The notes under the pieces are model-generated. The model was not told where the DNA came from, did no database searches, and saw only the letters and a list, made by a program, of their open reading frames with translations. A program made the position numbers and the translations under genes. Below, piece by piece: positions 1,343 to 63,905 of a stretch of DNA of 64,000 nt (positions within the stretch are counted from its first letter, which is position 1; each line of letters starts with the position of its first letter). Origin of the DNA: Candidatus Nanoarchaeia archaeon (GTDB lineage Archaea > Nanobdellota > Nanobdellia > Woesearchaeales > ARS49). Location of the stretch: positions 1,581-65,580 of the forward strand of contig JBGPSD010000005.1 of NCBI GenBank assembly GCA_041489925.1, written 5' to 3'.

Positions 1343-2698
1343 GTTCCAGAAAGCCCTCTGCACAACTTCTGGCAGTGCAGGATGGACGTGGATTGCGTGC
1401 AAAATCCCATTAACGCCTAATTTCCCCTTCATTGCAACAACAACTTCGTGAATCAAAATTGAAGCATCAGAGCCAAGTATGTGGCAGCCAAGAATCGCTT
1501 TTGTTTTAGGATCAGCAAGAACCTTCACAAACCCGTCCTTGTCCTCAATTGACTTTCCATAGGCAGTGTCATAATGCCTGTATCTGCCCACAACATAAGG
1601 AATCTTTTTCTCCTTTAATTCCTCCTCTGTCATTCCAACACCTGCAATCTGGGGCGAGGAAAACACTGCGTGGGGCATTGCGTCATAAGGAACCCTGTGT
1701 TTTTGTTTTGGATTAAGCGCGTTTTCAACAGCAAAGGAAGCCTCAAGGTTGGCAGAGTGCTTGAACAAATACACCCCTGCAATGTCGCCAATAGCCCAAA
1801 TGCCAGGGACATTTGTCTCCATAAACTCATTTGTCGTTATGAAGCCAGGCTTGTAAGTTAGCACTCCTGTCTTTGCAACGTCAAGGATGTCAGTGTTTGG
1901 AATCCTGCCTGTGGCGACAAGCAATTGCTCGCCTGCAACAATGCGCTTTTGCTTTCCAACAGAGTATTCTACCGCGATGTTTTTGCCTTGCTTGAAGACC
2001 CTTTTTGTTGTTGCGTTAAGTATGACATTGTGCTTTTTCGCAAAAACCCTGGTAAATGCCTGCGCAATCTCAGAATCCTCTGCTGTGACAAGCCAGCCGC
2101 TCCTCTGCAAAACAGTCACTTTTGTGCCCATAGAGCCAAAGAAGTGAGCCAGTTCTGCAGCAATGTAGCCGCCCCCTATTATTACAAGGCTTGCGGGCTG
2201 TTTTGGCAGCCTGAGAGCCTCGTCAGAAGTTATGTAATTTACCTTGTCCAAACCAGGAATCTGCGGTATTGAAGGCCTTGTTCCTGCGCAGATGAATATT
2301 TTGTCAGCTGTAATTACATCCTTTCCAACTTTTAGCTTTTTCTTTCCGACAAATTTTGCAGTTGTTTTGTAGACAGTGACGTTTTTTGCTTCCCTGTTTC
2401 CCTGCTCTATTTCCTTTGCCTCTGTGTCAACAGTTTCTGAAACGCGCTTAATTATCGCTTTCCAGTCAATGCCCTCCACCTTTGCTTTTATTCCGAGCAG
2501 TTGCGCGCGGTTTATCTCGTCCATCACATCTGCACTGCGGATAAGCATCTTTGAAGGCACACAACCGCGGTTCAAACAAGTGCCGCCAAAAGCACCCTGC
2601 TCAACAACTGCCACCTTTAACCCGCGCTCAGCAGCATAAGCGGAAATAATCAGCCCAGAACCCGCGCCTATTACGATTGCATCAAACCTCTTTTCCAT
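1319..2698 (-). CDS. lpd: class I pyridine nucleotide-disulfide oxidoreductase (dihydrolipoyl dehydrogenase-like)
   Basis: N-terminal FAD motif GAGSGL, redox disulfide GGTCLNRGCVPSK, second Rossmann motif IIGGGYIAAE, C-terminal HVHPALPE dimerisation/active-site motif. Confidence 0.88.
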   Translation of the reverse strand: MEKRFDAIVIGAGSGLIISAYAAERGLKVAVVEQGAFGGTCLNRGCVPSKMLIRSADVMDEINRAQLLGIKAKVEGIDWKAIIKRVSETVDTEAKEIEQGNREAKNVTVYKTTAKFVGKKKLKVGKDVITADKIFICAGTRPSIPQIPGLDKVNYITSDEALRLPKQPASLVIIGGGYIAAELAHFFGSMGTKVTVLQRSGWLVTAEDSEIAQAFTRVFAKKHNVILNATTKRVFKQGKNIAVEYSVGKQKRIVAGEQLLVATGRIPNTDILDVAKTGVLTYKPGFITTNEFMETNVPGIWAIGDIAGVYLFKHSANLEASFAVENALNPKQKHRVPYDAMPHAVFSSPQIAGVGMTEEELKEKKIPYVVGRYRHYDTAYGKSIEDKDGFVKVLADPKTKAILGCHILGSDASILIHEVVVAMKGKLGVNGILHAIHVHPALPEVVQRAFWNVKNHQGS

Positions 2699-2963
2699 GC
2701 CCCTGTTGGGGCATATATTGTATATAAATGCTTTTAAACATCAAAACGATACATTTATATACTGGAGTATATAGGTTGTATACAGCAGAGACAAAAGGTA
2801 GCACGGCACAAGAAAACTGGTGCTGTGTTGGAAGACTTGTTCTTCCTGGTCTATCACTTGACAAGCAGGGCTTGTCGAGTTCTTCGCCAATCGAGATTGG
2901 CGAGATTTTGTCAATGGCAAACAAAAGGTAGAAACCGGGTAACTTGGTTTCGGAGCAGAAACA

Positions 2964-4145
2964 ATGAAATTTACAGAGATGAATTTGAAGCCTCACTTTA
3001 TAGAGGCATTAAGCAAACAAAATATTACAGAGCCAACAAATGTCCAGGAAAAGACAATCCCTGTCATGATGACAGGAAAGGACATTATAGTCCGTTCCAA
3101 GACAGGCTCTGGAAAGACAATAGCATTCTTATTGCCAATAATGGAGCATTTGCACCCTCACGGCTTGCAGGCACTGATCCTCGCGCCCACAAGGGAGCTC
3201 GCATTGCAGACAGAGAAGGAAATCAGGAAGCTTGACAAAAACGTCACGTCCGTAACGATTTACGGCGGAGTCAGCATAAACCCGCAGATGGAGAAGCTTG
3301 AGCAGGGCGTCCAGATTGTCGTCGGAACTCCAGGAAGGATTCTTGACCACATGGAGCGCGGCACGATTGACTTTTCAAAGATTCGCTGGGTTGTCCTTGA
3401 CGAGGCAGATAGAATGCTTGACATGGGATTCATAGAAGACGTTCACAGGATCCTGAGCGCGACCCCAAAGGACAGGCAGACAACAATGTTCTCGGCAACA
3501 ATGCCTGCGGAAATCGTGATGCTTACAGAGGACTGCATGAAGCCTGACGCGAAAAGGATTATGCTCGAGCAGGACGAAATCACAGTCAAGAAAATCAGGC
3601 AGGTGTGCTACGGGCTTGACCAGAAGGAAAAGCTTGACACGCTCGTGAAGGTTTTGAGAAAGCCTGACGTGAAGAAATCCATAATTTTCTGCAACACAAA
3701 GAGCTGGGCGGACTCGCTCGGCAGAATCCTCAGAAACAAGGGATTCTGTGTCGGAAGTTTGCACTCAGCACTGAGCCAGCAGCGCAGGAACGTTGTAATC
3801 CAGGATTTCAAGGAAGGCAGGTTCAATATCCTCGTCGCCACAGACGTTGCGGCAAGGGGACTGCACATTGACGACGTCTCGCACGTCATCAACTACGACC
3901 TTCCGAAAAACCCAAAGGACTACATCCACCGTATCGGAAGAACCGGACGCGCTGGAGAGGAAGGCGACGCTATCAGCTTCTGCACCCAAAAAGACGAGCC
4001 AATGCTGAAAAACATTGAGCGCGAAATTCAGATGACTCTGGATTTGCAGACGCTCACAGGCGGAAAGCTGCAGCGCGTTGAAAGGCCGCAGGTAACTATG
4101 GCATCATCTGCGTCTGACGGCGACTGGGGCAATCTGCTCGATTAA
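2964..4145 (+). CDS. DEAD-box ATP-dependent RNA helicase
   Basis: Motifs SKTGSGKT, PTRELA, VLDEADRM, SAT and HRIGRTGRAG. A T-rich tract follows the stop. Confidence 0.93.
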   Translation: MKFTEMNLKPHFIEALSKQNITEPTNVQEKTIPVMMTGKDIIVRSKTGSGKTIAFLLPIMEHLHPHGLQALILAPTRELALQTEKEIRKLDKNVTSVTIYGGVSINPQMEKLEQGVQIVVGTPGRILDHMERGTIDFSKIRWVVLDEADRMLDMGFIEDVHRILSATPKDRQTTMFSATMPAEIVMLTEDCMKPDAKRIMLEQDEITVKKIRQVCYGLDQKEKLDTLVKVLRKPDVKKSIIFCNTKSWADSLGRILRNKGFCVGSLHSALSQQRRNVVIQDFKEGRFNILVATDVAARGLHIDDVSHVINYDLPKNPKDYIHRIGRTGRAGEEGDAISFCTQKDEPMLKNIEREIQMTLDLQTLTGGKLQRVERPQVTMASSASDGDWGNLLD

Positions 4146-4199: not shown

Positions 4200-4272
4200 G
4201 AGCCCGTAGTTTAGCGGTCATAACGCCTCGTTGACGTCGAGGAGGTCGCCAGTTCGAATCTGGCCGGGCTCA
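4200..4272 (+). tRNA. tRNA-Val (anticodon GAC)
   Basis: Hand-folded cloverleaf: acceptor GAGCCCG/CGGGCUC, anticodon stem CCUCG/CGAGG with loop UUGACGU, T arm GCCAG-UUCGAAU-CUGGC, discriminator A. 73 nt, no encoded CCA. Confidence 0.9.
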
Positions 4273-4339
4273 TGAGCATCAGCGAATGAGCACGGACAGG
4301 CTCGTCAATCGCAATTGACCGCTGTCTGGCCGGGCTCAT
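4259..4339 (+). repeat. structured insertion E1 with duplicated tRNA-Val 3' end
   Basis: 15-nt TCTGGCCGGGCTCAT occurs at 4259-4273 and 4325-4339. The 51 nt between are GAGCATCAGCGA + ATGAGCACGGACAG (antisense of the target, 12/14) + GCTC + GTCAAT-cgca-ATTGAC + CGCTG. Confidence 0.8.
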
Positions 4340-4408: not shown

Positions 4409-6763
4409 TTATATGAAATTAGCTGCGCTGCCTGGTTCTTGTGCTTCTTTGGTTTCGTCCAATACGTTTGATGAGCTGGCGATGCGCTCCAGTGCCTGCT
4501 TGTGCTGGGGGTGCTGAAGCCTTTCAAGCGCAACTTTCTCAATCTGCCTGACACGCTCCCTTGTCACCTTCATTATTTCCCCGATTTCCTCGAGAGTCCT
4601 GCGCTGGACAAACCTTTCCCGAATTACTTGCAGCTGTTTTGGCTTGAGAATTTGCTCAAGATATCCCCAGAGCTCCTGGTTGTTCAGCGCCTCGCCAGCG
4701 CTTTCCAGCCTGGGGTCAAGCCGCCCAAGAAAATCGCCGATTACAGAGTCATCGTCCTCTGAAATTGCGTTGTCAATGGATGAAAACCTTTTTGCCCAGC
4801 CTCTGAGCTTGCACATCTGCCAGGGCGTCATGCCCATTCTTTCCGCAATTTCATTTATTGACGGCTCCTGGTAGTTGGTCTGGATAAATTTATCAACTTC
4901 CTGGAGATACTTTCCTAGTAGCGCCCTTATGTGAATAGGCCTTCGCAACCCAAGCCCCTGCACTTCGTCAATATATCTGGTGACGCTTTGCTTTATCCAC
5001 CAGCTTGCGTATGTTGTCAGTTTTCCGAGTTCAGGGTCCCACTTGTCAACTGCAGTCATGGCGCCCAGGTTTGCGTGGCTTATCAGGTCAATCCAGCGGT
5101 CGGTGAAGCTGCCGTGCTTTCCCCTTGTCGCGTATTTCTTTGCCCAGAACGCGCTTAGCTTTGCAATCTGCAGGACAAGGGTGTCGCGCGATTCGCGGTA
5201 AATTGCGTAGCTCTTGATTGCCTCCCTGCGGCGGTCACGCGAACCAATATGCGGTTTGTCAGCGACGTATCTTGAGACAATAGGAATAAGGGTTCGCGGC
5301 CGGAACTTATTCATCCTGTAAATCTGCACAACCTCGTCCTCAAGCCGCTCGTACTCCTTCAGTAAACTCTCCCTGCTTTTGCCTGTTTTCTCTTTCAGCG
5401 CGTTCTCAAGATTCACAGCCCTTTGAGCGCGCAGTTCCAGCCTGGCTGTGACGCTTTTCCAGGCGCCCATCTTCGCGCTTGCCTTATACGCGTCGCACTC
5501 AAAAATGCTTGTTGACTGGCGCAAATCCCCTGACTCAATAAGCGAGAGAATCTCCTTTGCGACCGCAGCTGCGGCGTGGGGGTTCCTGAGCGTGAGATAC
5601 ATGAATTTTTCCCTGTGCTCATTCATCGTGTTGCAGATTTCCTTCTGCTTTTCCGCGCTCATTACCCTGGCATTTGCGACTTTCTTGAAATAATACGGGA
5701 TTGCATCCTCCACCCTGTTCTTTGGGGGGTCGAGGTTGATTCCCTTTTTGATAATATCAAATACGTGGTCCACATCTATTTCAGAAACCTTCACCCCTAC
5801 CTGCTCAAGCTGGTCCCTTACCTTTTCGATTTTCTCAAAGTCAGAATTGCCAACAACGCCGAGAACGGCTGTGTACGAAACAACCCCTGCAGCAACCCAC
5901 TTGCTCAGCAATCCGTGCGGGATTGATTTGGCAAGCTCCCTTTCAACAGCCCTCTTGACAATGTTGCCCTCTTTTGCAAACCTTTGCTCGTCAATGAGTT
6001 TCTTCAGGTCTGCAAATTTGTAAAAGACGCGGTTGTTGCGCGTTATTGTCGCAACCTGGTGATATTCTGCCGCGTGCTTTATCCTGTGATAATCAAGATA
6101 AGGTTTTGTAGCCCTCAATGCCTTCCTTATCGGCAGGTATTCCTCGCCAGGCTCTCTCTGTTCCTCGATAAAAGCGAGGTTTCGGTAGCGCTGGCTTACA
6201 AGCCCTGAGCGCCTGTTCTTTGGAAGCAGGGCTGTTTCCTTGAGGTCTGTTGATATTGCGGTGTAAACATCCTTCAACAGGCTTATTGGAATCCCGCCCT
6301 TGACCCTGAAATATTCAGGCATTGCAATGCAATTAATCCGGAGGAATGGCAGCGATGCAACCTGGCCATTGTTTTCAGGATATGACTTGAAGATTTTTTC
6401 CCTTGCCTGCTCAACATACGCCTGAAAGTCTGCGATAAGGACTGATTTTGATGAGCCAAGGCTGTTTCCATACTTGCTTTTGAAAAACTCCTGGACAGGC
6501 GCCGTATCCGTGATGTCAAACGCGTTAGCCAGCTCCTCAAGGCTCAACCGCTGAAAAAGCCCAACATCATCGACGTGAATCATGTCCCTGAAAGTCTGGC
6601 TTTCCACGCCAAGTGTCCTGTTCAGGTTCCTGTGCCTTGAGAATCCCTCGTAAATGTCAACAGCGTCAACGCAGGGGAAAACCTGCGGCACTTCCATCGC
6701 GCAAAGGTATTCCTTGTCATAATCCGCTGCGGTAACAGCACCGTAGAACTTACCTTTGGGCAT
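4409..6763 (-). CDS. sigma-70 family protein with a long N-terminal extension
   Basis: The C-terminal ~300 aa match bacterial RpoD motif by motif. Region 2: LISHANLGAMTAVDKWDPELGKLTTYASWWIKQSVTRYI. Region 3: SINEIAERMGMTPWQM. Region 4.2: RTLEEIGEIMKVTRERVRQIEKVALERLQHP. Region 1.2-like: EDAIPYYFKKV. Confidence 0.85.
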   Translation of the reverse strand: MPKGKFYGAVTAADYDKEYLCAMEVPQVFPCVDAVDIYEGFSRHRNLNRTLGVESQTFRDMIHVDDVGLFQRLSLEELANAFDITDTAPVQEFFKSKYGNSLGSSKSVLIADFQAYVEQAREKIFKSYPENNGQVASLPFLRINCIAMPEYFRVKGGIPISLLKDVYTAISTDLKETALLPKNRRSGLVSQRYRNLAFIEEQREPGEEYLPIRKALRATKPYLDYHRIKHAAEYHQVATITRNNRVFYKFADLKKLIDEQRFAKEGNIVKRAVERELAKSIPHGLLSKWVAAGVVSYTAVLGVVGNSDFEKIEKVRDQLEQVGVKVSEIDVDHVFDIIKKGINLDPPKNRVEDAIPYYFKKVANARVMSAEKQKEICNTMNEHREKFMYLTLRNPHAAAAVAKEILSLIESGDLRQSTSIFECDAYKASAKMGAWKSVTARLELRAQRAVNLENALKEKTGKSRESLLKEYERLEDEVVQIYRMNKFRPRTLIPIVSRYVADKPHIGSRDRRREAIKSYAIYRESRDTLVLQIAKLSAFWAKKYATRGKHGSFTDRWIDLISHANLGAMTAVDKWDPELGKLTTYASWWIKQSVTRYIDEVQGLGLRRPIHIRALLGKYLQEVDKFIQTNYQEPSINEIAERMGMTPWQMCKLRGWAKRFSSIDNAISEDDDSVIGDFLGRLDPRLESAGEALNNQELWGYLEQILKPKQLQVIRERFVQRRTLEEIGEIMKVTRERVRQIEKVALERLQHPQHKQALERIASSSNVLDETKEAQEPGSAANFI

Positions 6764-9008: not shown

Positions 9009-10483
9009 ATATGGACATAGCTACAGGCGACGTCCAGGTCGTAATTCTTAATGAGAAAGACGCAGATATGCTTGACCTGCACCACAATGACCGCATCTTC
9101 GTGAGGAAAGACAGGCGCCACACAATCGCAGTCCTTGACATCGGGGAAAGCGAAAAGGCAGTGCCGGCTGGCTCAATAGGGCTTTTTGAGGAAGTTCTTG
9201 ACGCACTGTACGCAAAAGACGGAGACACTGTGTCAATCGAGCTCGCGAGAAAGCCAAAGAGCGTCGGCTACATAAGGAAAAAGCTCGACGGAAAAGAGCT
9301 GACCTACAGCGAAATCTATGAGGTCATAAAGGACATTGGCAAAAACCAGCTCACCGACATAGAGCTGGCGAGCTATGTGACTGCAAATTACATAACAGGA
9401 ATGAGCGACAATGAAATCATAAACCTCACAAAGGCAATGATTTTCACAGGCACCAAGCTGAAAATTGCGAAAAAGCCTGTTGTTGACATCCACTGCATTG
9501 GCGGAGTGCCTGGCAACAGGACAACAATGATTGTCGTCCCAATCCTAATCGCTGCAGGGCTGACAGTGCCAAAGACAAGCTCAAGGGCAATAACATCTCC
9601 GGCAGGCACTGCAGACACAATGGAAGTCCTGTGCCCTGTTTCTTTGCCGATTTCAAAGCTTTACCAGATTCTCAACAGTGTCGGCGGCTTCATAATCTGG
9701 GGCGGCTCTGTCAACCTTGCGCCTGCAGATGACCGCATTATCAAAGTCGAGCACCCGCTAAGCATTGACGCAGAAGGCCAGATGCTTGCATCGATTATGG
9801 CGAAAAAGGCAAGCGTCAGCGCAACGCACCTGCTGATGGACATTCCTGTCGGCAAGGGCGCAAAAGTTGAGGACAGGAAGCAGGCAGTCCACCTTCAGGG
9901 CCACTTTGAGCGCCTTGGAAAGGAGCTCGGGATTCAGGTCTGCACGATTATAACGCAGGGCTCAGAGCCGATAGGAAACGGCATAGGGCCTGTCCTTGAG
10001 GCAAAAGACTGCCTTTGGGTCTTGAAGAATGATTCAAGGGCGCCTCAGGATTTGAGGAGAAAAAGCCTTGAAATGGCAGCAGTCGCGCTTGAATTTGCAG
10101 GAGCAGCAAAAAAAGGGCAGGGAATGCAGATGGCGACAGAAATCCTGAACAGCGGCAAGGCATACAAGGTGTTTGTTGACATGATTCGCGCGCAGGGCGG
10201 CAAAGATGTTGACCCTGAAAGCCTTAAGCCCTGCCCATTGCAGTACACCTATTCCGCGCCAAAGGCAGGACTGGTGAAATCCCTTGACAATATCTCAATC
10301 GCGCGCATAGCAAGGATGGCAGGGGCGCCAAGGGACCCTGACTCAGGAATACTTCTCCACCGCCACTGCGGAGATTCTGTGAAAAAAGGGGAGCCGATAA
10401 TGACAATTTACGCGCACACAAAAGAAAAGCTCGGCTATGCAATAGATATCCTGAAAGACCTTGACGGCATTATTGTTCAGTAA
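8990..10483 (+). CDS. deoA: AMP phosphorylase (archaeal thymidine phosphorylase family)
   Basis: 497 aa. Has the archaeal-type N-terminal domain (MKLRVKDMDIATGDVQVVILNEKDA...) followed by the glycosyl transferase family 3 core (HCIGGVPGNRTT, TSSRAITSPAGTADT). Confidence 0.88.
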   Translation: MKLRVKDMDIATGDVQVVILNEKDADMLDLHHNDRIFVRKDRRHTIAVLDIGESEKAVPAGSIGLFEEVLDALYAKDGDTVSIELARKPKSVGYIRKKLDGKELTYSEIYEVIKDIGKNQLTDIELASYVTANYITGMSDNEIINLTKAMIFTGTKLKIAKKPVVDIHCIGGVPGNRTTMIVVPILIAAGLTVPKTSSRAITSPAGTADTMEVLCPVSLPISKLYQILNSVGGFIIWGGSVNLAPADDRIIKVEHPLSIDAEGQMLASIMAKKASVSATHLLMDIPVGKGAKVEDRKQAVHLQGHFERLGKELGIQVCTIITQGSEPIGNGIGPVLEAKDCLWVLKNDSRAPQDLRRKSLEMAAVALEFAGAAKKGQGMQMATEILNSGKAYKVFVDMIRAQGGKDVDPESLKPCPLQYTYSAPKAGLVKSLDNISIARIARMAGAPRDPDSGILLHRHCGDSVKKGEPIMTIYAHTKEKLGYAIDILKDLDGIIVQ

Positions 10484-11082
10484 CCTTCCTTGTGCTCTTT
10501 GGTGTGCTCGTTGTGTATCGCGACCATTGCCCTGTGCGAGGCATAAAGCCTTCCTTTCATCACCCTGAGAACGTTTTGCCCGCCACGTAATCCCCTTGCA
10601 GTAATCCTTGCCTCCTTTGCAAGCAGTTCAGCCTCTTTTGCAATCCTTGTTTCCATTGCGAGCTTTTCCGCTTCCTGTATAAGCCTTGCCTCCCTGAGCA
10701 GGACTGCCTCGTGCGCGACTTTCTGGCCGCTCTCTGCAACCTGCTCACCGACTGCGAAAATCGCAGCCACCTGCTCATAAGCCCTGAATGCAAGATAGAA
10801 CGGGAACACTGCAATCATGTCAAGCCAGTACAGCTTGAAAAACTTCCTGACATTTTTTGTCTTGAACCACTTGAAAACAAGGTCAACAACAAAGAAGAAA
10901 ACAATTATGTAGTCAAATATGGTCATCCACGGCCCGTGTTCGCTGATTGGATACAGAGTCCAGAACGGGTTTTCAACAATGAGCACGAGGGCAAGGATGA
11001 TAACCAGAAAAGGGATTATGTGGTCAGTAAAGTGCTCAAACTCATGAGTAAACCTCTGCCACAAACTCCTCTTTTTTTCCAT
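10477..11082 (-). CDS. membrane protein with a voltage-sensor-like (ion_trans S1-S3-like) N-terminus and coiled-coil tail
   Basis: FDYIIVFFFVVDLVFKWFKTKNVRKFFKLYWLDMIAVFPFYL resembles the S2-S3 segments of ion-transport proteins. No pore or selectivity filter. The ATG directly abuts the duplicated tRNA-Ser 3' end. Confidence 0.45.
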   Translation of the reverse strand: MEKKRSLWQRFTHEFEHFTDHIIPFLVIILALVLIVENPFWTLYPISEHGPWMTIFDYIIVFFFVVDLVFKWFKTKNVRKFFKLYWLDMIAVFPFYLAFRAYEQVAAIFAVGEQVAESGQKVAHEAVLLREARLIQEAEKLAMETRIAKEAELLAKEARITARGLRGGQNVLRVMKGRLYASHRAMVAIHNEHTKEHKEGY

Positions 11083-11243
11083 ACGCCGACGGCAGGACAG
11101 CGGTCAACTTCGCTGATGCTCGTTGACCAGCCATGTCCGTGCCCTGATGAGCACGGCCAGACAGCGGTCAACTTGCGAGTTGACGAGCCCTGCCTGAACC
11201 TCACATATGTTACCTACTATATATTTATACGCCGACGGCAGGA
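11081..11243 (-). repeat. composite structured insertion E4 with duplicated tRNA-Ser 3' end
   Basis: Minus-strand 17-nt TCCTGCCGTCGGCGTAT occurs at 11243-11227 and 11097-11081. The 129 nt between hold an AT-rich stretch, a near copy of the E1 3' half including a tRNA-Val 3' end (TCTGGCCGTGCTCATCAGG), and the hairpin GTCAAC-GAGCATCAGCGA-aGTTGAC followed by CGCTG. Confidence 0.75.
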
Positions 11244-11312
11244 TTTGAACCTACAATTCCTTTCGGAACCCGCTCTCAAGGCGGGCGCACTACCGGGTTA
11301 TGCGACGTCGGC
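11230..11312 (-). tRNA. tRNA-Ser (anticodon UGA)
   Basis: Hand fold: acceptor GCCGACG/CGUCGGC, anticodon stem CCCGC/GCGGG with loop CUUGAGA, long variable arm UUCCGAAAGGAAUU, T arm GUAGG-UUCAAAU-CCUGC, discriminator G. 83 nt. Confidence 0.85.
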
Positions 11313-11479
11313 ATTATACCTTGCGATTACTTGCCTCCGTCACAAGACCTCTCGTTCTGCGGAACTTCAAGGTTATGCGACGTCGGCATTATACACTGCG
11401 ATTACTGGCCGACCTCGCTGGATCCTTTGCTCTGCGGAGCTGCAGGATATGCGACGTCGGCATTATACCGTGCGATTAT
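11296..11479 (-). repeat. tandem triplication (74-75-bp period) of the tRNA-Ser 5' flank plus its first 14-17 nt
   Basis: 35-nt blocks at 11296-11330, 11371-11405 and 11445-11479 (minus strand GTAATCGCAnnGTATAATGCCGACGTCGCATAnCC). The intervening 39-40 nt are related to each other. The distal unit folds as GCCGACGTCGC...GCGAGGTCGGC. Confidence 0.8.
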
Positions 11480-11534
11480 GTTACTCATAATCAAATACAT
11501 ACTTTAAAAAACATGCGGTTCCAAGCGGTGTTTT

Positions 11535-15879: not shown

Positions 15880-17049
15880 TTATAAGTTAATACCTTTTAA
15901 AAGCGCCTTAAAGTTGCCTTTTGTCGGGCTGTGCTTGTAGTGCTTTGCCCAGTGCTTTATGTCCTTAAATGGGGCAATCCTTTGCTTTGCTGCGAATGAG
16001 CAAAGCTGAGTTACATTCCTTTGCTTTTTCACCATGTGAGTCCTTTCAAAGTCAATCAGGACAATTTTTCCTTTCGGTGTCAGTATCGCGTTCTTCAAAG
16101 GTCTTAGCATTTCCTCTTTTGCAAGCCCTGCGCTGTCAAGTGTGAATGCCTGCTCAAACAATTGCCTGAATATTTTCCTTTTCAGGGCTTTGCCTGCTGT
16201 GTCAAGAACATCCTCGACATACCTTCCAGGGATGTATTCGTAAACCACAAAATCCCTTTCAGCAGCAAAGAGTTTTGGACCCAGCCCGAGTTTGTTAACA
16301 ACATTCAGCACTTTTCCCTCTTTTGCAGGCGAGTTCACAGCAGAATCAGGGCGCTTTACCTTGACAACGCAATCTTTTCCGCAGTATTTTCCCTTGTAAA
16401 CCCAGCTGCGCTTGCCCCTTGAAAAGTAGGTTGTGCCCTTTGCCCCTGATTTTTCAATCTTTTTCAGCAATGCAGACTTTGTAATCCTGTAAACAAACAG
16501 GTCCTCAAAGAAAATGTGAAGCCTGCCAAGCTCCCTGAACTCGAAAAGGTTCTGCCTTATTGACTGCTCAATGTGGTCTTTTCCGCTAAGCGAGGAAAAC
16601 AGGAGCAAAATCACTCCATCAGCCGAAAGAAACGCGTTTGCGCTTTTCAAAAACCGCACAATTGTCTCATATCCTTTCTTTCCGCCTTCAAGCGCAACGT
16701 CCCTTTCAGGCAGCGCCGACCTGCTGGTCGGCTGGTCTGAGCTCGCTGATGCTCGCTCAGGCAGTTCCTGCGGAAGATAAGGGGGATTAAAAATTATTGT
16801 GTCAAATTCGCCCTTTACTTTTGAAAACAAATTGCTCTGCAGGCATTTTATCTTTTTGTTCCTGATATTCTTTTTGCAATGTGAGACAACAGCAGGATTG
16901 ATATCGACGGCAAGCACTGACGTTGCCTTTTTTGCAGCAGCCAGCGCCTGTATTCCTGAGCCAGTGCCCATGTCAAGGGCTCTGCCTTTTGCAAGCCTCT
17001 TGACGTGCTTTTCAAGCAATAAGGAGTCCTCTTTTGGCGGGTAAATCAT
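15880..17049 (-). CDS. HemK/Mtq2-like glutamine methyltransferase fused to a small protein-kinase-like (Bud32/RIO-like) domain
   Basis: N-terminal half: SAM motif DMGTGSGI and catalytic IIFNPPY. C-terminal half: glycine-rich GAKGTTYFSRGKRSWVYKG, VVKVKRP, and KNAIL...LIDFE resembling a kinase catalytic/DFG-like region. A 4-nt overlap links it to the downstream lipoprotein gene. Confidence 0.7.
   Translation of the reverse strand: MIYPPKEDSLLLEKHVKRLAKGRALDMGTGSGIQALAAAKKATSVLAVDINPAVVSHCKKNIRNKKIKCLQSNLFSKVKGEFDTIIFNPPYLPQELPERASASSDQPTSRSALPERDVALEGGKKGYETIVRFLKSANAFLSADGVILLLFSSLSGKDHIEQSIRQNLFEFRELGRLHIFFEDLFVYRITKSALLKKIEKSGAKGTTYFSRGKRSWVYKGKYCGKDCVVKVKRPDSAVNSPAKEGKVLNVVNKLGLGPKLFAAERDFVVYEYIPGRYVEDVLDTAGKALKRKIFRQLFEQAFTLDSAGLAKEEMLRPLKNAILTPKGKIVLIDFERTHMVKKQRNVTQLCSFAAKQRIAPFKDIKHWAKHYKHSPTKGNFKALLKGINL
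16706..16764 (-). repeat. structured insertion E2, in frame inside the methyltransferase-kinase gene
   Basis: Sense strand: CTGCCTGA | GCGAGCATCAGCGAGCTCAGACCAGCCGACCAGCAGGTCGGCG | CTGCCTGA. An 8-nt direct repeat flanks 43 nt, adding 17 codons (RASASSDQPTSRSALPE) between duplicated LPE(R) codons just after the NPPY loop. Confidence 0.75.
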
Positions 17050-25521: not shown

Positions 25522-26073
25522 TTAACGAACCATTTGCCCTGTCTGCTGCTTTGGGGCAGGCATCGGTGCAGGTTTTACAGGCACAGGCTGTGGCGCAGAA
25601 GGTGCTTTTGGAACTGCAGGCTTCGGAGCAACAGGCTTGACTTCAGCGGGCTTTGCCGCTGCTGGCTTGACTTCAGCTGGTTTTGCAGGCAGCGCCGACT
25701 TCGTCGGCTGGTCTGCACTCGCCCCTGCTCGTGCAGGCGCTTCAGGCTTCTTCTCGCCAGGCTTTGCGCCCTTCTTCGGCTTCTCTTCTTTCTTTTTCTC
25801 AACAGGAGCGCCGACAATTTCAGCCCTTACAATGCCCTTGTCGTCCTTTATAACATTGACCTTGACCCTTGAAGGCGGATTCTTGATGCCGTGGCTCCAG
25901 AGAATCAGGTTGAGGTATTTGCCGAGCTTTATGTTGTCCATTTCCTCAACTTTCATGTGGCGCATCAGGAATTCGCGTATAGCTCGCACTGCCTTTTTCG
26001 CGCGCTTGTACTTGACTGATTTCAGCCATTCCCTGCGCAAGGGTATTGTGTAAGTGCGTTCAATGTTTGCCAT
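25522..26073 (-). CDS. rpl31e: 50S ribosomal protein L31e with a long Ala/Pro/Lys-rich C-terminal extension
   Basis: The N-terminal ~90 aa (ERTYTIPLRREWLKSVKYKRAKKAVRAIREF...) are L31e-like. The remaining ~90 aa are low-complexity. Confidence 0.88.
   Translation of the reverse strand: MANIERTYTIPLRREWLKSVKYKRAKKAVRAIREFLMRHMKVEEMDNIKLGKYLNLILWSHGIKNPPSRVKVNVIKDDKGIVRAEIVGAPVEKKKEEKPKKGAKPGEKKPEAPARAGASADQPTKSALPAKPAEVKPAAAKPAEVKPVAPKPAVPKAPSAPQPVPVKPAPMPAPKQQTGQMVR
25684..25738 (-). repeat. structured insertion E3, in frame in the L31e tail
   Basis: Sense strand: GCCTGCA | CGAGCAGGGGCGAGTGCAGACCAGCCGACGAAGTCGGCGCT | GCCTGCA. Encodes ...RAGASADQPTKSALPA... Hairpins CTGCAC/GTGCAG and GCCGAC/GTCGGC parallel those of E2. 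Confidence 0.7.
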
Positions 26074-50911: not shown

Positions 50912-52171
50912 TTATTTCTGCAGCGTGAGAGTCTTCAGAATTGTCGGCGAGACTGTCAGCTGCGGTTTTACTATAATCGGGGTGAATGTGGACGTGGCAG
51001 GCGGATTAGGTGATGCGCCGCACTCTCCGTCATCACAGCCATACGGGCAGGCAATGTTTTCAGAGGCAAGATTGCCGCTCTGGCAGTAATACTCAAGCAC
51101 TTCCCTTGTGTTTGCACAGGAGTCAGTGTAAGTGTTTGAACTCTGCGTGCCGTCTGTGTAAGAGGTTGTTAGCGTCACTGTTCCCTTGTTCTGCGCATCC
51201 CTTCCCTTGTCATTTTCCCTGCAGGTTGTTGTTCCTGTCCTTGTGTCGCCGCCAGTGTAAACAGTCACAGGTGTTGTCGGGGTTGTTGGCTGCTGTTCGC
51301 ACATCTTCCTGACGCAGTAAGCATATGTTGTCGCGCTGCCGTCTGCGCTGTTCCAGCAGTCTCTTTCGCAGTCTGTTGGCTTTCCGCAGTCAACATCAAG
51401 GCAAATCGCAAGAGCCTCCTTGTTATTGCTGTATTTTGTCCTGCAGTTCTCCTCGCAGGTCTGTTCGCGGCATTCCCTTTGCACGCATGCCTGGTAAACT
51501 GTCGGGCTTCCCTGTGATTTCTTCCAGCAGGATGTTTCGCAAGGGTCTCCCTGGTCGCAGTCAAGCCGTAAGCACAGTGCATAAGCATCTTTGTTTGAGC
51601 CGTATTTTGTCTTGCAGTTTTCCTCGCAAGTATTGCATTCCCTTTGCACGCATGCCTGGTAAACTGTCGGGCTTCCTTTTGATGTTTTCCAGCAGGCTGT
51701 TTCGCAGGGGTCTCCTGGGTTGCAGTCAAGCCTTAAGCACAATGCATAAGCGTCCTTGTTTGAGCCGTATCTTGTCCTGCATGTGTCTTCGCAGGTTTCA
51801 GGTGCGCACCGCTCTTTTACGCAAAGGTCGTATTTTGTCTTATCCTTTCCAAATGCCTGCCTGCAGTATTCCTCGCACGTGCAGTTCTGCTGTTTAGGGC
51901 AGTCAGGGCAAGTTTCGCATGAAGGGCATTGCGGGCATCTTTGTATTTCCCCGCAGCCTGCATTTACGCTTATTCCGCCGCCTGAGCCGGTAATAACTCC
52001 GTTGCCTACTGTCACTGTTGATGCCCTCAAGTAGGGGACAAAAAACAATAGAAAGATTATCGCCATCACTTCAAGAAGTATAAGCACAAGCAGGGGCTTT
52101 GGGATGATATAGGCACGCCTACCTGTGAAAAAAGCAATGGAATAATCCTTTGCTGCCATGGTATCAGACAT
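50912..52171 (-). CDS. membrane-anchored Cys-rich repeat protein
   Basis: N-terminal TM segment. Three ~54-aa repeats (CE(D/E)(T/N)C(R/K)T(R/K)Y(G/S)(S/N)NK(D/E)A-x-A-(L/I)-C-L...). C-terminal C-x-(E/D)-x-D...YYC...C-x-YGCDDGEC module. Confidence 0.6.
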   Translation of the reverse strand: MSDTMAAKDYSIAFFTGRRAYIIPKPLLVLILLEVMAIIFLLFFVPYLRASTVTVGNGVITGSGGGISVNAGCGEIQRCPQCPSCETCPDCPKQQNCTCEEYCRQAFGKDKTKYDLCVKERCAPETCEDTCRTRYGSNKDAYALCLRLDCNPGDPCETACWKTSKGSPTVYQACVQRECNTCEENCKTKYGSNKDAYALCLRLDCDQGDPCETSCWKKSQGSPTVYQACVQRECREQTCEENCRTKYSNNKEALAICLDVDCGKPTDCERDCWNSADGSATTYAYCVRKMCEQQPTTPTTPVTVYTGGDTRTGTTTCRENDKGRDAQNKGTVTLTTSYTDGTQSSNTYTDSCANTREVLEYYCQSGNLASENIACPYGCDDGECGASPNPPATSTFTPIIVKPQLTVSPTILKTLTLQK

Positions 52172-63010: not shown

Positions 63011-63100
63011 GGGCTCTTAGCTCAGTCTGGTAGAGCATTCGGCTCTTACGCTTATTGCGCAGAAACCGAATGGCCAAGGGTTCAAATCCCTTAGAGCCCG
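63011..63100 (+). tRNA. tRNA-Lys (anticodon CUU) with a 16-nt intron
   Basis: Hand fold: acceptor GGGCUCU/AGAGCCC, D arm GCUC-AGUCUGGUA-GAGC, anticodon stem UUCGG/CCGAA with loop CUCUUA[intron]A, T arm AAGGG-UUCAAAU-CCCUU, discriminator G. Confidence 0.85.
63049..63064 (+). other. putative tRNA intron at canonical position 37/38
   Basis: CGCUUAUUGCGCAGAA interrupts the anticodon loop and contains an internal CGC/GCG helix. Exact boundaries not verified by a BHB fold. Confidence 0.6.
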
Positions 63101-63178
63101 TAATGAGTAACAACGAATGGAGGAATCTAAGGCTGGACGACCGCTGTCGGCCGCTGCCTTAGAGCCCGTAATGAGTAA
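63089..63178 (+). repeat. structured insertion E5 with duplicated tRNA-Lys 3' end plus downstream gene start
   Basis: 22-nt CCTTAGAGCCCGTAATGAGTAA occurs at 63089-63110 and 63157-63178. The 46-nt insert CAACGAATGGAGGAATCTAAGGCTGGACGACCGCTGTCGGCCGCTG contains an antisense TCTAAGG and ends in GTCGGCCGCTG like E2/E3. Confidence 0.8.
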
Positions 63179-63905
63179 AACATTATTGTGTCCATTATTT
63201 GTATTCTTGCTCCTGCTTACAGCCTGCGTTCCAAAGCCAGAGCCATATGTCCTTGAAGACCGCGAGCCTTCATCGTCGAATATCACGCAGGAAATTGCCC
63301 AGCTCGAGGAGCAGGCAAAGGCGCAGGTACGGGCGCAGTTTGAAGCAGCAGAGCAGAAAAAACAGGAACAGCAACAGGAAGCGCAAAAGCCTGCAGAGGA
63401 GCCAAAGCCCCAGGTTACAGTCCAGCAGGGGGTGCAAACAGCGTCTGTCCCTCTGGGGGTTTATCCCGATTACTTCATGGACGGCGATGCTTTCAAGTCA
63501 AACTTCATAACAGTTGTCGGCGAGGAAGCGCCGTCAAGCTATGTTGTCGCTGTCTCCAACCTGATGGCCCGCAGTCCTGGAACCAAGCCGACAGGATTCA
63601 GCATGCTCGCGAGCGAAATTAATGATTTGTCAAAGTATAACATTGTTGTTGCGGGAACAGCCTGCAATAATGAGGTTGTTGAGAAATTGCTGGGCACTCC
63701 AATACCCTGCGACACTGCTCCTTTGCCGTCGGGAAAAGGGCTTATCAGGCTGTATGAGTCTGCAAACGGAAATGTCGTGCTTCTTGCAGCAGGAAAGACA
63801 GACGCGCTTGTAATCGCAGCTGTGAACGCAATCGGCACAGACCAGTTTATCAGCGTGACAGGCAATGAGATTTGCGTGCAGGGAACAACACTCGTTGCGT
63901 GCTGA
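63171..63905 (+). CDS. lipoprotein, hypothetical
   Basis: Trimmed to MSKTLLCPLFVFLLLLTAC (lipobox LLTAC). The ATG lies inside the second repeat copy. Has a Gln/Glu/Lys-rich linker and then a globular part. Confidence 0.6.
   Translation: MSKTLLCPLFVFLLLLTACVPKPEPYVLEDREPSSSNITQEIAQLEEQAKAQVRAQFEAAEQKKQEQQQEAQKPAEEPKPQVTVQQGVQTASVPLGVYPDYFMDGDAFKSNFITVVGEEAPSSYVVAVSNLMARSPGTKPTGFSMLASEINDLSKYNIVVAGTACNNEVVEKLLGTPIPCDTAPLPSGKGLIRLYESANGNVVLLAAGKTDALVIAAVNAIGTDQFISVTGNEICVQGTTLVAC

What the first reader, a model, noticed from the sequence alone, without database searches (positions are those of the whole stretch)
11081..11243. Duplicated tRNA-Ser 3' end places the downstream ORF's ATG 1 nt after a tRNA-like discriminator
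The second copy of TCCTGCCGTCGGCGTAT ends ...CGUCGGC-G-U-AUG, so the start codon of the 10477..11082 gene begins 1 nt after the position where tRNase Z would cut a tRNA. The same geometry occurs at tRNA-Lys (AGAGCCC-G-UA-AUG, 63157-63173). Without the inserts, both ORFs would abut genuine tRNAs. This suggests tRNA-mRNA co-transcripts in which tRNA 3' processing releases a near-leaderless mRNA. The inserted elements preserve a tRNA-end mimic next to the ATG. tRNase Z is known to process a tRNA-like element upstream of 5S rRNA in haloarchaea, and tRNA punctuation is known in mitochondria. Use for mRNA 5' end formation in archaea would be new.
Basis: inference. Interest (0 to 1): 0.7.

Follow-up and report, generated by a model that had tools for sequence, protein, structure and literature searches.

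The report
Hairpin inserts that duplicate tRNA ends
In this small archaeal (Woesearchaeota) genome, short hairpin-forming DNA inserts sit at the ends of tRNA genes and copy the last ~15 bases of the tRNA, so a tRNA-like end lies just before two start codons; related genomes without the insert show that both genes already touched their tRNAs, which suggests they are transcribed together with the tRNA.

Summary
A 17-nt copy of the tRNA-Ser 3' end abuts the ATG at 11082, and a 22-nt copy of the tRNA-Lys 3' end overlaps the ATG at 63171. The copy is not special to ORFs. The third tRNA in the window (Val) has the same duplication with no ORF behind it. Related elements lie next to Val, Ser, Lys, Leu, Ala and Pro tRNA genes in other Woesearchaeota contigs.

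Each unit reads: tRNA end, loop, imperfect inverted copy matched to that tRNA, conserved covarying hairpin, CGCTG, direct copy of the tRNA end. One copy sits at a tRNA 5' end in inverted orientation, which points to a DNA-level element. Sites are filled or empty among close relatives.

In the empty sites the ORFs abut the real tRNA: tRNA-Lys + 3 nt + ATG in three species, and tRNA-Ser + 4 nt + ATG in one. The idea that the insert preserves a tRNase Z mimic is not supported. The insertion mechanism is unknown: no integrase, Cas1 or transposase is linked to the elements.

The parts
11230..11312 (-). tRNA-Ser(TGA), intact gene
   Evidence: ARAGORN; Rfam RF00005 at 55.2 bits
11227..11243 (-). Proximal repeat X1: T-stem 3' strand + acceptor 3' strand + discriminator of the real tRNA-Ser, plus TAT
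   Evidence: the repeat finder family D3, 100% identity
11098..11226 (-). 129-nt insert made of two hairpin units (A: 11148-11201; B: 11084-11144). Unit A ends in a tRNA-Val-like 3' end, TCTGGCCGTGCTCA, at 11148-11161
   Evidence: CM R1 hits of 59.6 and 51.7 bits. Homologous two-unit insert in L014. Absent in L011 and L012
11167..11184 (-). Conserved hairpin of unit A (GTCAAC-TCGCAA-GTTGAC), followed by CGCTG
   Evidence: Fold; covariation of the stem across loci
11102..11128 (-). Conserved hairpin of unit B (GGTCAAC-GAGCATCAGCGAA-GTTGACC), followed by GCTG and the distal repeat
   Evidence: Fold; alignment A2
11081..11097 (-). Distal repeat X2, the 'tRNA-end mimic', overlapping AT of the start codon
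10477..11082 (-). 201-aa Ion_trans-family membrane protein gene whose ATG follows X2
   Evidence: Pfam PF00520
11216..11228 (-). TATAAATATATAG, a TATA-box-like stretch directly after tRNA-Ser inside the insert. Possible independent promoter about 130 nt upstream of the ATG
   Evidence: Sequence inspection only. Not present in the L014/L015 versions of the insert
11313..11512 (-). Leader of tRNA-Ser: two extra ~75-nt units, each holding a copy of the first 17 nt of the tRNA (11371-11387, 11445-11461), a small hairpin with a CGCA loop, and an imperfect complement of that copy
   Evidence: the repeat finder family D1; the same unit in L014 and a related one in L096
63011..63100 (+). tRNA-Lys(CTT) with a 16-nt canonical intron
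   Evidence: intron-less orthologue in L106
63089..63110 (+). Proximal 22-nt repeat: tRNA-Lys 3' end plus 10 nt of flank
   Evidence: script
63111..63156 (+). 46-nt degenerate insert. It keeps the inverted arm remnant TCTAAGG, then GGCTGG, then GACCGCTG; the hairpin interior is deleted
   Evidence: CM R1 at 24.2 bits. Fuller versions in L094 and L103
63157..63178 (+). Distal 22-nt repeat containing the ATG (63171) of the lipoprotein gene
63171..63905 (+). 244-aa predicted lipoprotein gene (MSKTLL...LLTAC lipobox)
4200..4272 (+). tRNA-Val(GAC)
4274..4339 (+). Val unit: loop GAGCATCAGCGAA, inverted arm TGAGCACGGACAGG, hairpin 4304-4319, CGCTG 4320-4324, and direct copy TCTGGCCGGGCTCAT 4325-4339 (original at 4259-4273). 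No same-strand ORF follows
   Evidence: CM at 74.1 bits; orthologous units in L006/L015, L014 and L100

Best explanation
The duplicated tRNA-Ser 3' end is the outer direct repeat of a short, non-coding, hairpin-forming DNA element. The element belongs to a family that sits at the ends of tRNA genes in this group of Woesearchaeota. Each unit reads: real tRNA end (X1), a loop, an imperfect inverted copy matched to that particular tRNA (X'), CTCG, a conserved hairpin, CGCTG, and a direct copy of the tRNA end (X2). The duplicated segment always begins at the T-loop/T-stem boundary and runs to the discriminator plus 0-10 nt. The ATG lies against X2 only because the gene already started 1-4 nt after the real tRNA before the element was there, or after it is lost. 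That underlying abutment is real and conserved. It implies (inferred, not shown) that these genes are transcribed from the tRNA promoter, with the mRNA 5' end made by tRNA 3' processing. How the element gets in is not shown. I favour a DNA-level, site-specific insertion that duplicates the target. It may use the X1-loop-X' hairpin as a folded recombination site, as with integron attC or CTX-phage attP, or a staggered Cas1-like cut. Arrays would then be remodelled by recombination between repeats.
For: Family and anatomy. All 3 tRNAs in the window carry the duplication. GACCGCTG occurs directly before each copy. Homologous units lie next to Val, Ser, Lys, Leu, Ala and Pro tRNAs in independent metagenome and MAG contigs. 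A covariance model over 248 kb finds 16 copies, every one directly 3' of a tRNA and none orphan. The inner hairpin covaries: 95% of cells are paired, 5 pairs change on both sides, and 0 of 500 shuffles reach this. X' is matched to its host tRNA: own-duplex mean is -15.3 kcal/mol against -8.7 for non-cognate pairs. Presence/absence. tRNA-Ser and tRNA-Val sites are empty in L011 and L012 and filled in the window, L014 and L015. tRNA-Lys sites are empty in L105-L107 and filled in the window, L103 and L094. DNA-level origin. The element at the 5' end of tRNA-Leu in L087 is the same family in inverted orientation. The Ser array contains a Val-type unit. By-product. X2 abuts whatever followed the tRNA: a convergent gene region (window Val), a TATA box (L014 Ser), another tRNA (L096 Ala), or an ATG. 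Ancestral abutment. L011 reads tRNA-Ser+TATT+ATG; L105/L106/L107 read tRNA-Lys+3 nt+ATG. In L012/L014/L015 the ion-transporter gene has its own TATA at -29..-22, i.e. it is normally leaderless. That promoter is missing in L011 and the window.
Against: The direction of change is unresolved. By AMP phosphorylase and methyltransferase identities, the window, L011 and L012 form a tight trio with L014 and L015 outside. Ancestral presence with precise loss in L011/L012 is therefore as parsimonious as gain. No autonomous copy or mobilising enzyme was found: none in the window, none in viral, phage or plasmid collections, and the IS200 lead failed. X2 is perfect while X' always carries mismatches, and the Val unit is nearly identical in four species. 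This could reflect selection for a function I have not identified. A purely insertional model does not explain how X' comes to match each new host tRNA. Six of the related loci were retrieved with a pattern taken from the element, so family frequency is biased. In protein-anchored loci 8 of 16 tRNAs are filled.
Confidence: 0.75

Rival explanations
1. The copy of the tRNA 3' end next to the ATG is kept because tRNase Z, or another tRNA end-processing enzyme, cuts there in a tRNA-mRNA co-transcript and restores a near-leaderless mRNA despite the insert.
For: Both ORF-adjacent copies in the window are perfect (17/17 and 22/22). There is no TATA-like box at about -27 and no Shine-Dalgarno sequence before either ATG. 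Predicted folds let the tRNA's own 5' acceptor strand pair with the distal copy for Ser (MFE and centroid) and Val, which would place a discriminator right before the AUG. Acceptor/T-arm minihelices are substrates of tRNase Z in general (PMC3714273). tRNase Z has a non-tRNA role in 5S rRNA maturation in Haloferax (PMC7714728).
Against: The duplication is equally present where no ORF follows. Ser X2 has no local partner, because the adjacent inverted arm is Val-type and pairs upstream. The Lys hairpin is no more stable than shuffles (z = 0.01), and its fold uses X1 for the tRNA. The T-loop/elbow that tRNase Z reads (PMC3714273) is replaced by an unrelated hairpin. In L103 the Lys copy has decayed to CTTTAGAGCACC and the gene has a new GAGGAG-led start. 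X2 has also decayed in L102, and lost 1 nt in L014. A TATA-like box inside the Ser insert (11216-11228) could give an independent promoter. One element lies inverted at a tRNA 5' end, which is hard to reconcile with an RNA-level role.
Confidence: 0.12
2. The repeats are attL/attR cores left by classical integrase-mediated integration of larger viruses or plasmids into tRNA genes. The short inserts are what remains after the elements were deleted.
For: A direct repeat running from the T-loop region to the tRNA 3' end, with an intact tRNA on one side, is the normal footprint of tRNA-targeting integrases (PMC9897764). Tandem units and hybrid arrays resemble repeated integration.
Against: All 16 copies found have inserts of only 22-130 nt, and none is kilobase-sized. 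Documented cases flank 9-23 kb with repeats of about 44 bp (PMC9897764). The same conserved 25-nt body is found at six different tRNA species. The Lys repeat includes 10 nt of gene-specific flank. There is no integrase in the window and no match in viral, phage or plasmid collections.
Confidence: 0.07
3. The units are functional RNA. They would be tRNA-acceptor-like minihelices in tRNA leaders and trailers, acting as processing signals, insulators, decoys or small RNAs, and selected in the host.
For: There is host-matched complementarity and a covarying hairpin. The Val unit is nearly invariant, including its two A-G mismatches, in four species whose flanks differ. X'+hairpin+X2 folds as a 13-bp imperfect helix.
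Against: The inverted copy at a 5' end would give the reverse-complement RNA. Sites are empty in close relatives with no obvious replacement. The hairpin is deleted in the Lys units of the window and L103. Fold z-scores of single units are modest, -1.65 to -2.5. There is no Rfam match.
Confidence: 0.05
4. Local replication slippage or tandem duplication at each tRNA independently, with no shared element.
For: The 5' units of tRNA-Ser look like a simple 75-nt tandem array. Array length varies between species.
Against: The hairpin body, CGCTG and loop motifs are shared between unlinked tRNA loci and between genomes. The inserted sequence between the repeats is not derived from the local flank, as seen by comparing empty and filled sites.
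Confidence: 0.01

Closest known systems
Partial tRNA-gene duplications (attL/attR) made by tyrosine-integrase elements in archaea and bacteria
   Same: A direct repeat of the 3' part of a tRNA gene. One intact tRNA and one displaced partial copy. The repeat starts in the T-arm region.
   Different: Here the DNA between the repeats is 22-130 nt and non-coding, not 9-23 kb (PMC9897764). The same body occurs at six tRNA species. An inverted, host-matched arm lies beside the tRNA. The repeat can include gene-specific flank. No integrase was found.
Casposon / Cas1 integration at tRNA 3' ends, and CRISPR spacer integration
   Same: The target is the 3' end of a tRNA gene, with the T-psi-C region acting as an upstream anchor. 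A fixed inner cut and a duplicated segment of about 14-15 bp resemble leader-repeat logic. Casposases can insert short oligonucleotides (PMC5137440, PMC6977970).
   Different: The casposon TSD overlaps only the last 4-5 bp of the tRNA and extends downstream. Here the duplicate covers the last 13-14 nt of the tRNA. There are no terminal inverted repeats and no cas1 or polB element. The duplicate length varies from 13 to 22 nt.
Folded single-strand recombination sites: integron attC and CTX-phage attP(+) (from my own knowledge)
   Same: An imperfect hairpin mimics the duplex target. The integrated product has target copy, loop, inverted arm at one junction and a second target copy at the other. 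Conserved mismatches are present.
   Different: No recombinase has been identified and no cassette or phage body is present. The target is a tRNA gene end rather than attI or dif. This is a resemblance, not a test.
tRNA punctuation, plant-mitochondrial t-elements, the Haloferax tRNA-like element upstream of 5S rRNA, and archaeal tRNA co-transcripts
   Same: A tRNA or tRNA-like fold immediately upstream of another RNA defines that RNA's 5' end through tRNase Z. In Thermococcus kodakarensis a tRNA-Lys lies in the 5' UTR of TK0306, and a tRNA-sRNA co-transcript is thought to be cut by RNase Z (PMC4247193, PMC7714728).
   Different: In the empty-site relatives a genuine tRNA sits 3-4 nt before an ATG, which would give a leaderless mRNA; I did not find this described for archaea. 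In the window itself the element next to the ATG is only a 3'-strand copy without a tRNA-like fold.
Distal repeats of the E. coli tyrT operon, each carrying the last ~19 nt of tRNA-Tyr (from memory, not checked here)
   Same: Tandem units downstream of a tRNA gene, each ending in a copy of the tRNA 3' end.
   Different: A single locus with 178-bp units, no host-matched inverted arm, and not a multi-tRNA family.
MITEs and REP/PATE elements of IS200/IS605
   Same: Short, non-coding, hairpin-forming, multi-copy elements with presence/absence polymorphism.
   Different: There are no terminal inverted repeats of the element itself. IS200/IS605 transposition makes no target duplication. The IS200-like element of a related genome has unrelated end hairpins and non-tRNA targets.

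Membership tests
tRNA-punctuated mRNA (5' end made by tRNase Z) | A genuine tRNA, or a tRNA-like fold, lies directly upstream of the ORF on the same strand | tested here: inconclusive
   Met in empty-site relatives (L011 Ser; L105-L107 Lys). In the window the adjacent sequence is only a 3'-strand copy. No tRNA model hit and weak or no local helix.
tRNA-punctuated mRNA (5' end made by tRNase Z) | No independent promoter between the tRNA and the ORF | tested here: inconclusive
   By inspection, 3-4 nt spacing in relatives leaves no room, and there is no A/T box at -29..-22 in the window. A TATA-like box does lie inside the Ser insert at 11216-11228. The promoter tool covers only sigma-70 promoters.
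tRNA-punctuated mRNA (5' end made by tRNase Z) | A co-transcript exists, and a 5'-monophosphate end lies at discriminator+1 | not testable with these tools
   Needs dRNA-seq, 5' RACE or an in vitro tRNase Z assay.
Integrase-type integrative element (att duplication in a tRNA gene) | Direct repeat of the tRNA 3' part flanking the insert, with an intact tRNA at one end | tested here: met
Integrase-type integrative element (att duplication in a tRNA gene) | An element body encoding an integrase (or remnants of one) lies between the repeats | tested here: not met
   Inserts are 22-130 nt in all 16 copies. No integrase among about 45 window ORFs scanned.
Casposon / Cas1-mediated insertion | TSD of 14-15 bp overlapping the last 4-5 bp of the tRNA gene | tested here: not met
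   The duplicate starts at the T-loop/T-stem boundary, covers 13-14 nt of the tRNA, and totals 13-22 nt, compared with PMC5137440 and PMC6977970.
Casposon / Cas1-mediated insertion | Terminal inverted repeats, with cas1 and polB inside the element | tested here: not met
   No TIRs at the insert ends by inspection. The only family B polymerase in the window (31857-34304) sits in a housekeeping context, with no Cas1 nearby.
IS200/IS605-derived hairpin element (PATE/REP) | End hairpins shared with an autonomous Y1-transposase element of the same genomes | tested here: not met
   Three identical IS copies define the ends TTAATCACGTGAGCC...GGAGGAGGTCAC, with unrelated hairpins. TGACCGCTG lies in the flank of one copy only. 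No Y1 transposase in the window.
MITE | Terminal inverted repeats plus a short fixed-length TSD, and many dispersed copies | tested here: not met
   No element TIRs. The duplicate length is variable. Copies occur only at tRNA ends.
Known RNA families (Rfam 15) | A match to a curated covariance model | tested here: not met
   Only the three tRNAs at gathering threshold. Nothing credible at E <= 5 over the Ser and Val regions.

The most novel reading that the evidence does not exclude
Woesearchaeota carry a previously undescribed class of tiny (about 40-65 nt) non-coding DNA elements that insert specifically at either end of tRNA genes. They duplicate the terminal 13-17 bp and carry an imperfect inverted arm matched to the particular tRNA. 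That arm would act as a guide-like or folded-att feature, implying a new or unrecognised recombination mechanism. Separately, some genes in these genomes have no promoter of their own and are expressed as tRNA-mRNA co-transcripts, with the leaderless mRNA released by tRNA 3' processing.
Probability: 0.3. Interest if true: 0.8.

Novelty: new variant of a known kind. Interest (0 to 1): 0.6.

Why it matters
Two points would matter if confirmed. First, tRNA-Lys + 3 nt + ATG is conserved across species, and tRNA-Ser replaced the ion-transporter gene's own leaderless promoter. This gives a concrete, testable case of tRNA-punctuated, leaderless mRNA formation in archaea. So far only looser tRNA co-transcripts are documented there. 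Second, the hairpin elements are a clean natural example of insertions that recognise tRNA gene ends and regenerate them. They combine a target-matched inverted arm with a conserved hairpin. Finding what moves them could reveal a new site-specific or guide-dependent recombination activity in DPANN archaea. Practically, the pseudo tRNA ends and the in-frame ATG at 63117 can mislead gene callers and att-site or island predictors.

Tried and rejected
1. IS200/IS605 mobilisation. A Y1 transposase gene lies in a related MAG (L106), and TGACCGCTG occurs 40 nt after it. Three identical IS copies (L108-L110) show that this motif is flank DNA of one copy, and that the IS end hairpins are unrelated. Rejected.
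2. Viral or plasmid origin. A pattern scan of IMG/VR gave 71 hits, none near a tRNA. blastn against phages and plasmids gave nothing.
3. Hammerhead or other known RNA. CTGATGA in the Ser insert prompted a check, but there is no Rfam hit.
4. BHB-intron reading. The helix mismatches are 1x1 loops separated by 3 bp, not 3-nt bulges around a 4-bp helix.
5. T-loop as an internal TATA box for the abutting ORFs. It lies at -24..-17, about 5-7 nt too close compared with the lineage's own promoters.
6. The related-looking repeats at 16727-16767 and 25703-25743 lie inside coding genes and were not pursued.
7. The genome contigs pattern scan gave only one relevant hit, L006. The other seven were bacterial chance matches.
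8. Whether the elements were gained or lost could not be resolved, because the window, L011 and L012 are nearly equidistant and the loci look mosaic.
Full report
**Observation**

The window is archaeal: it carries TFB, family B polymerase, exosome, proteasome and Pop5/Rpp14 genes. Its closest named relatives are Candidatus Woesearchaeota MAGs. ARAGORN and Rfam find three tRNAs: Val(GAC) at 4200-4272 (+), Ser(TGA) at 11230-11312 (-), and Lys(CTT, intron) at 63011-63100 (+).

The reported repeat is exact. ATACGCCGACGGCAGGA lies at 11081-11097 and 11227-11243. On the tRNA strand the distal copy reads CGTCGGC-G-T-ATG, and this ATG starts ORF 10477..11082. At tRNA-Lys a 22-nt repeat (63089-63110 and 63157-63178) contains G-TA-ATG, with the ATG at 63171.

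Both start codons are confirmed by homologue N-termini and lengths: MEKKR/MKKKR at 194-207 aa, and MKK..lipobox at 238-248 aa. Two further assemblies of the same strain are identical over the Ser locus.

**The duplication is generic, not ORF-linked**

The third tRNA, Val, has the same feature. TCTGGCCGGGCTCAT lies at 4259-4273 and again at 4325-4339, with a 51-nt insert between the copies. The only downstream gene is convergent. All three inserts end in GACCGCTG immediately before the copy.

Related contigs were retrieved in two ways: through neighbouring proteins and through a DNA pattern. They show homologous units next to these tRNAs:
- tRNA-Val: L006/L015, L014, L100
- tRNA-Ser: L014, L015, L091
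- tRNA-Lys: L094, L103
- tRNA-Leu: L087
- tRNA-Ala: L096
- tRNA-Pro: L102

A covariance model built from 13 units finds 16 copies in 248 kb of Woesearchaeota DNA. Every copy lies directly 3' of a tRNA. The distal copy abuts whatever originally followed the tRNA: a TATA box (L014 Ser), another tRNA 2 nt away (L096 Ala), non-coding DNA, or an ATG.

**Anatomy**

Each unit reads, in order:
1. the real tRNA 3' strand (X1: T-stem 3' strand, acceptor 3' strand, discriminator);
2. a loop (GAGCRTYAGCGAA, or a short GNRA-like loop);
3. an imperfect inverted copy X';
4. CTCG;
5. a 6-7-bp hairpin (loop mostly CGNA, or the long GAGCATCAGCGAA);
6. CGCTG;
7. the direct copy X2.

X' changes with the host tRNA. 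Its duplex energy with its own tRNA end averages -15.3 kcal/mol, against -8.7 for non-cognate ends. It always keeps 1-3 mismatches, even where X2 is perfect. The inner hairpin covaries (stems GTCAAC/GTTGAC, GTCAAT/ATTGAC, GCCAGC/GCTGGC): 95% of cells are paired, five pairs change on both sides, and 0 of 500 shuffles reach this.

X' can pair either with X1 or with X2. In the second case it forms a 13-bp imperfect helix capped by the hairpin.

The Ser insert of the window and of L014 holds two units. Its internal junction carries a Val-type 3' end and a Val-type X'. This looks like a circularly permuted Val unit recombined into a Ser unit at the hairpin.

tRNA-Ser also has two extra 75-nt units in its leader. 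Each holds a copy of the first 17 nt of the tRNA, a small CGCA-loop hairpin, and an imperfect complement. Similar 5' units occur in L014, L087 and L096. The L087 5' unit, read on the opposite strand, is the same family: X', CCAG, CCAAAC-CGCA-GTTTGG, CGCTG, copy.

Orientation therefore follows the end of the tRNA gene, not the direction of transcription. I take this as the main argument that the phenomenon is at the DNA level.

**Presence and absence**

- tRNA-Ser and tRNA-Val sites are empty in L011 and L012, and filled in the window, L014 and L015.
- tRNA-Lys sites are empty in L105, L106 and L107, and filled in the window, L103 and L094.
- Comparing L012 (empty) with L014 (filled) shows the same flank, AGTTTTATAAACC, after the single or the distal copy. 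The difference is exactly insert plus one copy.

Protein identities place the window, L011 and L012 about equally close (92-94% for AMP phosphorylase). L014 (about 89.5%) and L015 (about 84%) lie outside them. Ancestral presence with precise loss by recombination between X1 and X2 is therefore as likely as gain. In protein-anchored loci 8 of 16 tRNAs are filled.

**The ancestral geometry**

In L011 the ion-transporter ATG follows the real tRNA-Ser by 4 nt. In L105, L106 and L107 the lipoprotein ATG follows the real tRNA-Lys by 3 nt. These three species have 66-69% protein identity to the window. The signal peptide requires that ATG.

In L012, L014 and L015 the ion-transporter gene has its own conserved promoter, CGCAATGCTTTTATAC, with the TATA box at -29..-22. 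That spacing means a leaderless mRNA. In L011 and the window that promoter, together with a kinase gene, is gone, and the tRNA takes its place. The tRNA T-loop lies about 5-7 nt too close to serve as a TATA box.

These genes therefore most likely depend on the tRNA promoter and on tRNA 3' processing. This is an inference. Looser precedents exist: a tRNA-Lys inside the TK0306 5' UTR, tRNA-sRNA co-transcripts cut by RNase Z (PMC4247193), and tRNase Z acting at the 5S rRNA 5' end (PMC7714728).

**Does the insert preserve a functional mimic?**

I find no support for this.
- tRNase Z reads the stacked acceptor/T-arm helix and the elbow (PMC3714273). In the units the T-loop is replaced by an unrelated hairpin.
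- The inverted arm next to the Ser X2 is Val-type and pairs upstream, leaving X2 largely unpaired.
- The Lys hairpin is degenerate and no more stable than shuffles.
- No tRNA model matches the copies.
- In L103, which is 95% identical in this protein, the Lys copy has decayed and the gene now starts behind GAGGAG.
- Copies have also decayed in L102 and L014.

Some points remain in its favour. Both ORF-adjacent copies in the window are perfect. There is no SD or TATA at the right distance. Thermodynamic folds allow the tRNA 5' strand to pair with the distal copy. A TATA-like box inside the Ser insert (11216-11228) is an alternative source of the transcript.

**Mechanism of the element**

This is unknown.
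- Classical integrase remnants are unlikely. All inserts are tiny, the same body occurs at six tRNA species, and documented cases flank 9-23 kb (PMC9897764).
- Casposases target tRNA 3' ends with the T-psi-C region as anchor and can insert short oligonucleotides. However, their 14-15-bp TSD overlaps only the last 4-5 bp of the tRNA (PMC5137440, PMC6977970).
- The layout 'target copy, loop, imperfect inverted arm, body, target copy' is what integration of a folded single-strand hairpin site would leave, as with integron attC or CTX attP. This comparison rests on my own knowledge and was not tested.
- No integrase, Cas1, transposase or RT is encoded in the window.
- An IS200-like element in a related MAG proved unrelated.
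- Viral, phage and plasmid collections hold nothing similar.

**Verdict**

The ancestral tRNA-ORF abutment and likely co-transcription hold. The 'preserved mimic' idea does not.
- The duplicated end is one arm of a tRNA-end-specific hairpin element family. I could not find this family described in the literature.

Noticed in passing
window 4409-6763 (-): A 784-aa protein in an archaeal genome with Sigma-70 regions 2, 3 and 4, all above Pfam cut-offs. It is conserved next to tRNA-Val in L011. A bacterial-type sigma factor homologue in Woesearchaeota is unexpected.
   Followed up: partly
window 11289-11512: Three tandem ~75-nt units in the tRNA-Ser leader. Each repeats the 17 nt upstream plus the first 17 nt of the tRNA. 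The A/T box sits at normal distance only from the outermost pseudo-copy, so the real tRNA would need a ~150-nt leader removed.
   Followed up: partly
window 63117-63170: An in-frame ATG at 63117 inside the insert extends the lipoprotein ORF by 18 codons (262 aa). Gene callers may pick it, but homologues support 63171.
   Followed up: partly
window 11216-11228 (-): TATAAATATATAG lies directly after tRNA-Ser. This TATA-box-like stretch is specific to the window's version of the insert and could be an independent promoter for the 10477..11082 gene.
   Followed up: no
L103 9059-9787 and tRNA-Lys 9778-9905: A LAGLIDADG-domain ORF lies between the upstream gene and tRNA-Lys, overlapping the tRNA start by ~10 nt. 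The tRNA there has a different upstream box.
   Followed up: no
tRNA-Lys in window, L103, L105, L094, L106, L107: The intron content of the orthologous tRNA-Lys varies: 16-17 nt (window, L107), ~53 nt (L103, L105, L094), none (L106).
   Followed up: no
L108/L109/L110 ~2380-3020: An IS200-like element of ~636 bp (150-aa Y1 transposase) is present in at least three identical copies in MAG GCA_900174565.1. Hundreds of close homologues sit on ~1-kb contigs, so it appears to be an active multi-copy IS in DPANN archaea.
   Followed up: yes
window 16727-16767 and 25703-25743: A 41-nt similarity lies inside two coding genes. The first contains GAGCATCAGCGA, the loop motif of the tRNA-linked units, inside a CTGAGC...GCTCAG hairpin. 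This is probably chance.
   Followed up: no
window 51299-51796: Three tandem 162-171-nt repeats (63-88% identity) lie inside the 419-aa ORF 50912-52171, which has no Pfam match.
   Followed up: no
window 37498-37839 (-): A 113-aa protein with a Kazal-type serine protease inhibitor domain (E = 1.3e-9), unusual in archaea.
   Followed up: no
tRNA-Val in window/L014/L015/L100 versus L011/L012: The T-stem pair differs in step with element presence: GCCAG/CTGGC in filled sites, GCCGG/CCGGC in empty sites. This grouping conflicts with the kinase-deletion grouping of the window with L011, which hints at recombination between lineages.
   Followed up: partly
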